Notes under the pieces: model-generated
Databases searched by the model: none
What the model saw: only the letters and a program-made list of their open reading frames with translations
What the model was told of the DNA's origin: nothing
Assembly (NCBI RefSeq): GCF_009914755.1
Contig: NC_060931.1
DNA from: the human T2T-CHM13v2.0 reference genome, Homo sapiens
Reading direction: 5' to 3' (one strand)
DNA: 64,000 bases
In this document: piece by piece, positions 46,737-47,949 of the stretch
How the letters are laid out: each line of letters starts with the position of its first letter
Numbering within the stretch: position 1 is the first letter of the stretch
Translations under genes and position numbers: made by a program

Positions 46737-47815
46737 TTATTTATTTATTTTTAATTTATCAAATTTGTTTATTAAAAATATCTATTGTTATAGAAGAATA
46801 TAAATAGTCAATAATAAAACTTTCTTTCTAAGCATACTTTCCACTTTATCCTACAATAAACCTATTAATCTTTTTAACAAAATAATTTTCAATGACTATG
46901 TACTGAAGTCAAAACATGATGTTTTAACTCATAGTTCTTGGGAATATAAGTCTAGAAACAACATTGCTATTGAGTACTCAAAGCGTTATTGAGAAAATCA
47001 TGTATTTTCAAAGTATAATACAATAATTTTTAGAAAATAAAGGATAAACTGTCCACTTATTAATATATAAAAACATTTATAGACCATTGTCTTAAGAAAT
47101 GCAGTGTGATGATATTTCAATTTGAGTAAAAAATGAGGCTCTCAATTACAGCATTTCTTTCACTGCTAATGAGAGAGAATCTAATCTTTCTATGAAGAGA
47201 GAGAAAGTCTCACATTTCCTAGTGTGTTCCAGGATCTCCTGTATTCTTTACATTTGGAGGAATCAACCATGAAGGAGTTGGCCACGGTGTCAGCATGTGA
47301 AGGCAGAGGAACTCCAGCTCAGAGAGAGGCTTCCCTGGATCCACTTGCCTCAACGACCCTCTGATGGAATCCAGGTGGGAGAATGCAGCTGGGCAGCTTG
47401 GGAGGCTTGAATGGAGGGGAGGGAACAGTGCTGCTTTAAGACCCAGGCCCACTCCTGGGGAAGTGAGCAGAGGGCTTGGATCTTGTCTTCCTGGCAGGTT
47501 TGGCAGAGCTCTTTGTGCAGGTGTGACTCTCATGGCCTCTTCTAAGGACTACAGCATTGTTAGCATCTCTGCCAGCCTCCCTTGTTGTTGGGACAGTTTG
47601 AACCTCTCTTCTTTCAATTCTTGAACCAGGGCAGGGAACGCCTCCATCAGCTTTGCGTTGGGCTCTATCTTCACCTTTTTGTAAGCATCTAACTCCTTTT
47701 TGGCAGCACTAAACTTGTTAGTGAGTTGGCATTTCTCCTCCATCTGTGAATCTAGTGTTTCTGCAAGCTGTTTCTCACATATTACATATAGTCGATTCCT
47801 AACAGACTGAACAAG
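46737..47815 (-). pseudogene. Processed pseudogene/retrogene related to cTAGE5/MIA2 (TANGO1 family), internally shortened; copy A
   Basis: 47815->47219 translates LVQSVRNRLYVICEKQLAETLDSQMEEKCQLTNKFSAAKKE...ELKEERFKLSQQ...ML*SLEEA...IRGSLRQVD...PSWLIPP, against recalled cTAGE5 SVRSRLYVGREKKLALMLSGLIEEKSKLLEKFSLVQKE, ELKEEKSKHSEQ, IQSLEDE, IRGPLFPVD, PSGLIPP; intronless; 3'UTR-like sequence then AATAAA (46773-46768) and an A-rich tail. Confidence 0.8.
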
Positions 47816-47817
47816 TC

Positions 47818-47900
47818 ATTCTGCAGGCTGGGAGGTCCAAGATCAAGATGCCAGCAGATACAGTGTCTGGTGAGGACCCACTTCCACATTCATAGAAGCT
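47818..47900 (-). mobile_element. MLT1A/MST-type MaLR LTR fragment abutting the cTAGE-like frame
   Basis: Minus strand tctatgaa...cctcaccagacactgtatctgctggcatcttgatcttggacctcccagcctgcagaat. Confidence 0.85.
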
Positions 47901-47949
47901 GTGAACTTCTGTCTTCTTGAATTTAAAAAATACGTCTCAGGAGAAACTG

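What the first reader, a model, noticed from the sequence alone, without database searches (positions are those of the whole stretch)
47810..47925. MaLR LTR fragment ends at its splice donor and is fused to the cTAGE-like frame: possible fossil of an LTR-driven spliced transcript
Seen: only ~80-100 bp of an MLT/MST LTR is present, in the same orientation as the retrocopy. It ends ...cccagcctgcagaat directly before gacttgttcagtctgttagg. An intact MLT in this window continues at the equivalent point as gaact|gtgag (about 56140-56150). Established: MaLR LTRs supply promoters and first exons with an internal splice donor, especially in oocytes and early embryos. Inference: the LTR piece is a spliced first exon, and copy A was reverse-transcribed from an LTR-initiated mRNA whose acceptor lies just after the TM-coding region, giving a TM-less soluble product. 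A parent locus with a full LTR, an intron and the cTAGE-like exon should then exist or have existed.
Basis: partly seen in the sequence, partly recalled or inferred. Interest (0 to 1): 0.75.

Follow-up and report, generated by a model that had tools for sequence, protein, structure and literature searches.

The report
Fossil of an LTR-spliced transcript
This 1.2-kb dead gene copy on human chromosome 7 joins a 103-base piece of an old retroviral repeat to part of a cTAGE-like gene, two pieces that lie 2.4 kb apart at a chromosome 10 locus, so it is likely the reverse-transcribed record of an ancient spliced RNA that lacked the gene's membrane anchor.

Summary
Window 47919-46753 (minus strand, 1,167 nt) is 103 nt of an MLT1 LTR, then 1,064 nt of an intronless mini-cTAGE gene, AATAAA and an A-rich tail. 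A paralogue at G000:C10, downstream of the integrin beta-1 gene, has a same-sense MLT1 LTR 2,387 nt upstream of the junction-equivalent base. Its 103 nt align without gaps (76/103), share a roughly 10-nt longer segment that a genome-wide pattern found only at these two places, and are followed by GTGAG. Four paralogues have an AG just before the joined base, right after the membrane-helix codons. Splicing followed by retrotransposition is likely (about 0.88). That the LTR was the promoter is open (about 0.55 against 0.30 for an internal exon), because the LTR piece also starts right after a CAG. A soluble protein is doubtful: the LTR exon has an in-frame stop and five ATGs precede the first usable one. 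No target-site duplication and no expression data were found. It is a well-traced, probably undescribed example of known processes.

The parts
47817..47919 (-). 103-nt MLT1 (MaLR) LTR piece; likely a spliced exon; matches G000:C10:32919378-32919276, which is flanked there by CAG before and GTGAG after
   Evidence: Gapless 76/103 to the C10 LTR; 5' segment scores 48 against at most 34.5 for 29 other copies; diagnostic pattern hits only C7 and C10
47816..47817 (-). Junction LTR|gene (CAGAATG|ACTTG); the 2,387 nt that separate the two parts at C10 are absent
   Evidence: AG precedes the equivalent base in paralogues C17, C18a, C18b, C19
46753..47816 (-). Mini-cTAGE-derived part: coding sequence from the residue after the membrane helix to the end, plus 3' UTR
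   Evidence: 76-82% identity to 8 paralogous pieces; tblastn E 5.6e-32 to P0032 and 1.35e-05 to the cTAGE5-type P0069
47549..47743 (-). Residual 64-codon ORF (MEEK...TML) ending at a TAG (47551-47549) where C17 and C10 have GAG and C19 has GAA
   Evidence: database proteins P0026 and P0029 differ at 1 and 8 of 64 residues and end at the same place
47691..47692 (-). Site of a 69-nt (23-codon) in-frame deletion; keeps both a GT and an AG, so not a splice
46768..46773 (-). AATAAA, 15 nt before the end of homology
46736..46752 (-). A-rich tract (14 of 17 A), likely a decayed poly(A) tail; C17, C18a and C19 continue here with sequence shared among themselves but not with the window
47920..47930 (-). 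TTTTTT/AAATT directly before the LTR piece; resembles an L1 endonuclease target, suggesting the insert starts at 47919
   Evidence: sequence; TTAAA lies within 8 nt upstream of 1.6% of minus-strand positions of the window; the target-site consensus is recalled

Best explanation
The 1,167-nt element joins a 103-nt MLT1 LTR piece to the post-membrane part of a mini-cTAGE gene and ends in AATAAA plus an A-rich tract; it is likely a processed pseudogene of an RNA that was likely spliced from the LTR donor to a cryptic acceptor at the ancestor of the chromosome 10 locus. Steps: (1, shown) a family of intronless, single-membrane-helix genes of about 205-270 aa related to the N-terminal part of cTAGE5/TANGO1 exists, with intact proteins in other mammals and broken copies in human; (2, shown) at C10 an MLT1 LTR lies in the same sense 2.4 kb upstream of the junction-equivalent base; (3, inferred) transcription through the LTR used its GTGAG donor and the pyrimidine-rich codons of the membrane helix plus the AG of the following Arg codon as acceptor, removing 2,387 nt including the gene's own start and membrane helix; (4, inferred) the RNA was cleaved 15 nt after AATAAA, polyadenylated, copied by L1 machinery in the germ line or early embryo and inserted on chromosome 7, roughly 50-90 million years ago (branch 0.11 changes per site, rates recalled); (5, inferred, less sure) transcription began in the LTR about 25 nt upstream of the preserved 5' end; (6, shown) the copy has since a 69-nt deletion and a stop, and the C10 parent has lost the acceptor AG. 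It is most likely non-functional today.
For: Both ends of the missing 2,387 nt fall at splice-like sites: GTGAG after the gapless 103-nt match at C10, AG after 8-10 pyrimidines of 12 in 4 of the 4 other paralogues tabulated. Provenance of the LTR piece: shared longer 5' segment, 103 nt against 70-96 nt where the same span could be measured in 15 of 29 copies; score 48 against at most 34.5; pattern with 3 mismatches finds 2 places in 3.1 Gb, reversed control 0. LTR identity (74%) is close to gene-body identity to C10 (78%), as expected for one copying event. The window copy groups with C10+C17 (83/90). 3' end at a poly(A) site. For a first exon: the sequence upstream of 47919 matches nothing above chance in 19.5 kb upstream of the C10 LTR exon, including the integrin exon end, nor elsewhere in the genome; an endonuclease-like site abuts the LTR piece; a TATA-like box lies 54 nt upstream in the parent LTR.
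Against: No target-site duplication above chance (best score 8.5 against 8-10.5 in 8 random stretches). The last two exon bases differ from the parent's (TG against CT). Today's C10 copy lacks the AG (TTG|ACTT), so the parent no longer shows a complete GT..AG intron; the AG is inferred from paralogues. By identity the closest paralogue is C17 (82%), whose own upstream MLT1 does not carry the diagnostic segment. The pattern was built from the two copies, so only the absence of third matches is informative; outside the longer segment they share just 2 rare states in 83 columns. The copy carries a 69-nt deletion that is not a splice, so DNA-level loss did occur in it. The 5' end falls exactly after a CAG, which favours an internal exon. 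No expression evidence was found.
Confidence: 0.55

Rival explanations
1. Same spliced retrocopy, but the LTR piece was an internal exon (CAG|103 nt|GT) of a longer RNA that began further upstream, for example integrin beta-1 read-through or an unknown promoter; the sequence upstream of 47919 would be an upstream exon whose source is lost or undetected.
For: The match to the C10 LTR starts exactly after the first CAG that follows a pyrimidine-rich run. The locus is 17,712 nt downstream of a same-strand integrin beta-1 exon donor. The C10 LTR match spans only 269 nt and seems to lack its 5' part. In Table S6 of PMC5538554 the MLT1A0 rows list 18 5'-exon, 17 internal-exon (all partial) and 6 full 3'-exon cases, so acceptors within such LTRs occur.
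Against: No upstream exon source: best ungapped matches ending at a GT are 17/25, 23/40, 31/60 against random maxima 18, 29, 34; the integrin exon end does not resemble the window's upstream sequence; genome search with 47915-48110 finds only itself (limited sensitivity at 75% identity). There are 7 YAG sites in the 126 nt before the donor, so a 5' truncation lands after one with probability about 0.06.
Confidence: 0.3
2. A DNA-level copy of the C10 region (or a retrocopy of an unspliced RNA) landed on chromosome 7 and then lost the 2.4-kb interval by deletion; the ends fall near splice-like sites by chance or through the short similarity between the LTR donor region and the acceptor region.
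For: The family spread mostly by DNA duplication with shared flanks; this copy has another, non-splice deletion; no target-site duplication; the two junction bases are not the parent's.
Against: Chance figure about 1e-4 for both ends; a microhomology join would be 3 nt shorter than what is seen, while the splice join has exactly the observed length; homology stops at a poly(A) site with an A-rich tract and no flank is shared on either side.
Confidence: 0.08
3. A chimeric retrocopy made by template switching of L1 reverse transcriptase from a mini-cTAGE mRNA to a separate LTR RNA, or a true parent that was a now-lost sister duplicate of C10.
For: C17 is closer by identity than C10 (82% against 78%); only the best candidates are scored in the genome searches, so further paralogues may exist.
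Against: The LTR piece is specifically the one lying upstream of a family member in the same sense; a template switch has no reason to use GT and AG positions. A lost sister parent would change the address, not the mechanism.
Confidence: 0.07

Closest known systems
ERVL/MaLR LTR co-option as 5' or internal exons, and 'pseudogene recycling' (Franke et al. 2017, PMC5538554)
   Same: A MaLR LTR with a donor near its 3' end is spliced to a downstream intronless gene copy; that paper reports 78 of 842 mouse full 5'-exon LTRs joined to processed-pseudogene sequence and 252 human MLT-derived 5' exons.
   Different: Here the evidence is a second-round retrocopy of the chimeric RNA, not RNA-seq; the acceptor is inside the coding sequence and removes the membrane helix; the parent has since lost the acceptor. 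The C10 LTR was not found in their human table by coordinate fragments and gene names.
Processed pseudogenes as 'fossilized footprints' of past gene expression (passage in PMC3162935, which cites Podlaha and Zhang 2009; that paper itself was not read)
   Same: A retrocopy preserves an exon junction and a poly(A) site of a past transcript.
   Different: The preserved isoform is an LTR chimera that the human parent can probably no longer make.
cTAGE5/MGEA6/MIA2 and its pseudogene family; TANGO1/MIA3 (PMC4565863)
   Same: Homologous membrane-helix and first coiled-coil region: P0015 against P0069 38% over 98 aa, E 1e-15; the family profile reaches P0069 and the SH3-bearing P0073 at E 2.5e-4 and 6.9e-4.
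   Different: The family here is about 205-270 aa, without the second coiled coil and long proline-rich tail; the genome searches with its DNA or protein returned only its own members. The names cTAGE5 and TANGO1 for P0069 and P0073 are recognised from memory; the only tool-given family name is 'Putative protein cTAGE-6' for P0022.

Membership tests
Processed pseudogene (L1-made retrocopy) | Intron of the parent missing at splice sites | tested here: met
   2,387 nt starting with GTGAG at C10 are missing; AG at the 3' end in 4 paralogues, lost in C10 itself
Processed pseudogene (L1-made retrocopy) | Ends at a poly(A) site with an A tail | tested here: met
   AATAAA 15 nt before the end, 14 of 17 A after it, paralogues continue otherwise
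Processed pseudogene (L1-made retrocopy) | Target-site duplication | tested here: inconclusive
   Best candidate in 6 kb upstream scores below random stretches; at this age a short duplication may be eroded
Processed pseudogene (L1-made retrocopy) | Empty site in outgroup genomes | not testable with these tools
   No other mammalian genomes are held (no relatives)
MaLR LTR 5'-exon co-option | Splice donor supplied by the LTR | tested here: met
   Break at the LTR's only GTRAG; GT at this position in 18 of 29 copies and at C10
MaLR LTR 5'-exon co-option | Transcription start inside the LTR | tested here: inconclusive
   TATA-like box 54 nt upstream and no upstream exon found, but the piece starts after a CAG
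MaLR LTR 5'-exon co-option | Expression in oocytes or early embryos | not testable with these tools
   No RNA data; term searches in supplements of three papers found nothing for the locus
MLT1 subfamily (MLT1A0-like) | Best match to the subfamily model | not testable with these tools
   No repeat library is held; MLT1 and MLT1A0 are recognised from memory. Tools show only a high-copy LTR-like repeat
cTAGE5/MIA2 family | Homology in the membrane-helix and first coiled-coil region | tested here: met
cTAGE5/MIA2 family | One transmembrane helix | tested here: not met
   Absent in the window copy (hydropathy maximum 0.11 in the 64-aa orthologue P0026); present in 11 of 11 longer family proteins examined (1.87-2.75)
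cTAGE5/MIA2 family | Two coiled coils and a C-terminal proline-rich domain | tested here: not met
   Alignment to P0069 covers residues 10-162 only; family proteins are about 205-270 aa

The most novel reading that the evidence does not exclude
An MLT1 LTR gave an undescribed eutherian mini-cTAGE gene a germ-line or early-embryo promoter and, by splicing into the end of its membrane-helix codons, produced a cytosolic coiled-coil isoform able to bind and compete at ER exit sites; the chromosome 7 retrocopy is the only surviving record of that isoform, and the whole gene family, intact in other mammals, is dead in humans.
Probability: 0.1. Interest if true: 0.65.

Novelty: new member of a known kind. 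Interest (0 to 1): 0.42.

Why it matters
It dates and localises an LTR-dependent splice event that no RNA data could show, because the human parent has lost the acceptor: a retrocopy, a private LTR indel and a parent locus give a closed chain of evidence from DNA alone. The same logic (LTR fragments cut at the donor and fused to unique sequence ending in a poly(A) tail) could be run genome-wide to list extinct LTR-driven germ-line transcripts. It also points to a family of short single-helix cTAGE-like genes that is intact in other mammals and broken in every human copy examined here, which I did not find described in the searches run. The element itself is probably dead, and each process involved is known.

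Tried and rejected
Target-site duplication search: nothing above chance. Window 48080-48800 as a second family copy or upstream exon: rejected; no blastn, tblastn or profile hit to the family. Integrin beta-1 exon as the upstream exon of the retrocopy: rejected by sequence. The 69-nt deletion as a second intron: rejected, GT and AG are kept. A pattern from the window's LTR piece alone found 4 other copies, none near a family member. MLT search upstream of other paralogues: none in about 5 kb of C18a, C18b, C19, C20, 6.7 kb of C16:38.265M or the 1.5-3 kb held for C4 and C16:39.15M; one weaker, same-sense MLT1 about 3.4 kb upstream of C17 (36 nt at 78% to the window). Upstream regions were read only to these depths, not the 50 kb first planned. 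Pfam on three window translations: no family at its cut-off. Protein searches for longer relatives by words found none; ESM Atlas gave only leads under 0.9; PDB no hit for the family. Literature searches listed no paper on this element, the C10 LTR or the short family; only listings were seen. Supplement searches for the C10 LTR used coordinate fragments converted from recalled hg19/hg38 positions, so those negatives are weak; file 1 of PMC5538554 was not searched and one file of PMC12999487 is cut. Earlier scan findings were not available.

Full report
The observation. A genome search with 47780-47940 gave 898 first-look candidates, of which 40 were scored; their matches end at the junction. 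In 18 of the 29 copies fetched, GT follows the base equivalent to 47817. The family names MLT1 and MLT1A0 are my recognition from memory; no repeat library was available.

The gene part. Searches with the window DNA, a paralogue's DNA and a paralogue's protein found related sequence at ten other places: C17:57.706M, C10:32.917M, C18:14.220M and 14.253M, C19:30.607M, C4:15.250M, C16:39.152M, 39.157M and 38.265M, C20:34.985M; these are lower bounds. The eight pieces compared are 76-82% identical to the window copy. All translations looked at are interrupted or short. Protein searches returned intact relatives of about 205-270 aa from other mammals, one named 'Putative protein cTAGE-6' from yak and one from raccoon dog. 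Eleven of eleven longer members examined have one hydrophobic helix that ends at the residue where the window copy begins. The family aligns with the N-terminal 160 residues of a cTAGE5-type protein (P0069; E 1e-15 for P0015) and weakly with a TANGO1-type protein (P0073); those two names are recognised from memory. PMC4565863 (passages read) describes cTAGE5 as having a membrane region, two coiled coils and a proline-rich domain, with nine human pseudogenes; the family here is shorter and is not that set by structure.

The acceptor. In C17 and C19 the base equivalent to 47816 follows CAG, in C18a and C18b GAG, after 8-10 pyrimidines in 12. These are the codons for the end of the membrane helix and the following Arg, so the acceptor is cryptic and inside an intronless coding sequence. 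The C10 copy has lost the AG through small deletions, and database proteins that resemble the C10 copy have the same shortened stretch.

The parent. Upstream of the C10 copy, in the same sense, lies an MLT1 LTR (match about C10:32919468-32919200). Its bases 32919378-32919276 align without gaps to window 47919-47817 (76 of 103) and are followed by GTGAG; 2,387 nt separate this point from the junction-equivalent base. Both carry a 5' segment about 10 nt longer than usual: the span is 103 nt in both and 70-96 nt in the 15 of 29 copies where it could be measured; the window's first 45 nt score 48 against C10 and at most 34.5 against the 29; a pattern covering both finds no third place in the genome at 3 mismatches. 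The pattern was made from the two copies, so only the lack of others counts. Outside that segment they share 2 rare states in 83 columns, which adds little. In a tree of 8 rows (one short piece left out) the window copy is sister to C10+C17 with support 83/90, and C10+C17 has 100/99, so the copying likely predates the C10/C17 split. C17 is closer by identity (82% against 78%) and has a different, weakly matching MLT1 upstream. The C10 locus lies 17.7 kb downstream of the exon for the integrin beta-1 membrane segment, on the same strand.

The 3' end. Homology stops at 46753, 15 nt after an AATAAA, and is followed by 14 A in 17; C17, C18a and C19 continue with sequence they share; C10 and C18b are interrupted by other repeats there. 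This is the end expected of a polyadenylated RNA. No target-site duplication scored above random stretches.

Splice or deletion. A random deletion would hit within 2 nt of the LTR's only GTRAG with probability 5/269 and an acceptor-like position with 24/3272, together about 1e-4 (rough and post hoc). The joined sequence has exactly the length of the splice product but differs from the parent in the last two exon bases; 2 of 29 copies have the window's TG before GTGAG. A 69-nt deletion further down keeps GT and AG and is not a splice, a reminder that DNA loss also happened. I put spliced retrocopy at about 0.88 in total.

First or internal exon. The LTR match begins exactly after a CAG preceded by pyrimidines in the parent, which fits an internal exon; with 7 YAG sites in the 126 nt before the donor a truncation would do this about 6 times in 100. 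An internal exon needs an upstream exon in the copy, and none was found in 19.5 kb upstream at C10 or by genome search, though a short exon at 75% identity could be missed. An endonuclease-like T-run/AAA site abuts the piece (background 1.6%) and the parent has a TATA-like box 54 nt upstream, so an LTR start with about 25 nt lost at the 5' end is plausible. In PMC5538554 (parts 1-2 of 8 and passages read; Table S6 parts 14-15 of 51 read) MLT1A0 rows show 18 5'-exon and 17 internal-exon cases. I give 0.55 to a first exon and 0.30 to an internal exon.

Protein. The LTR exon has an in-frame ATG but an in-frame TGA 16 codons later, and the parent LTR has the same stop; five ATGs precede the first in-frame ATG after the junction, at 47743, which opens 64 codons. 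The stop at 47551 is a sense codon in C17, C10 and C19. P0026 and P0029 have the same 64-residue frame with 1 and 8 differences; this shows orthologues exist, not that a protein is made. A membrane-less product was possible but would have been translated poorly; a non-coding or low-output RNA is more likely.

Comparison and novelty. LTR-supplied exons spliced to retrocopies are established (PMC5538554), as is the reading of processed pseudogenes as footprints of past expression (passage in PMC3162935). Seven literature searches (listings only) and supplement term searches in PMC5538554, PMC10616205 and PMC12999487 (main texts of the last two not read) showed nothing on this element, the C10 LTR or the short family; unsearched or cut supplements and subscription papers may bear on this. 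Verdict: real, well traced, probably undescribed, a new member of known kinds; interest 0.42.

Noticed in passing
G000:C10:32915800-32919500 (L046, L062): The parent locus (LTR plus mini-cTAGE copy with a 100-codon open start) lies just downstream of ITGB1 on the same strand. I recall that an Ensembl ITGB1 model extends to about this 3' UTR; not verified by any search.
   Followed up: partly
G000:C16:38265426 (L067:1977-2426, minus): Family copy with an open frame of 150 codons from its ATG, lacking part of the membrane helix; the frame is held letter for letter in the ESM Atlas and nearly so as P0001.
   Followed up: partly
P0003-P0016, P0032-P0071: A family of 205-270 aa single-helix cTAGE-like proteins with intact frames in other mammals; no Pfam family; no description found in the searches run.
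   Followed up: partly
window 48097-48247: About 150 nt match C10:38.200M and C10:43.354M at 71%, next to GC-rich sequence there; the wider stretch 47937-48383 is a 148-codon stop-free frame of unknown origin, not cTAGE-like.
   Followed up: partly
window 48063-48080: A run of 14 T followed by CAG on the minus strand, an acceptor-like site about 145 nt upstream of the LTR piece; could let a present-day transcript enter the retrocopy.
   Followed up: no
P0021 and P0023: Two database proteins share the same N-terminal 17 residues but continue as the C16 copy and as the window copy respectively; possibly assembly chimeras, or a sign of a further paralogue.
   Followed up: no
L008:590-1500 and 1750-2050 (G000:C17:57.705M): The C17 copy is interrupted a few bases after the acceptor-equivalent site by an insertion of about 900 nt containing Alu elements, and again by an Alu further on.
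   Followed up: no
L006:1346-1498 (G000:C18:14.220M): The C18b copy contains an internal piece that matches the upstream flank of the other paralogues.
   Followed up: no
window 8617-8916 and 13341-13640: Two 300-nt copies at 95% identity, 4,724 nt apart, within L1-like sequence.
   Followed up: no
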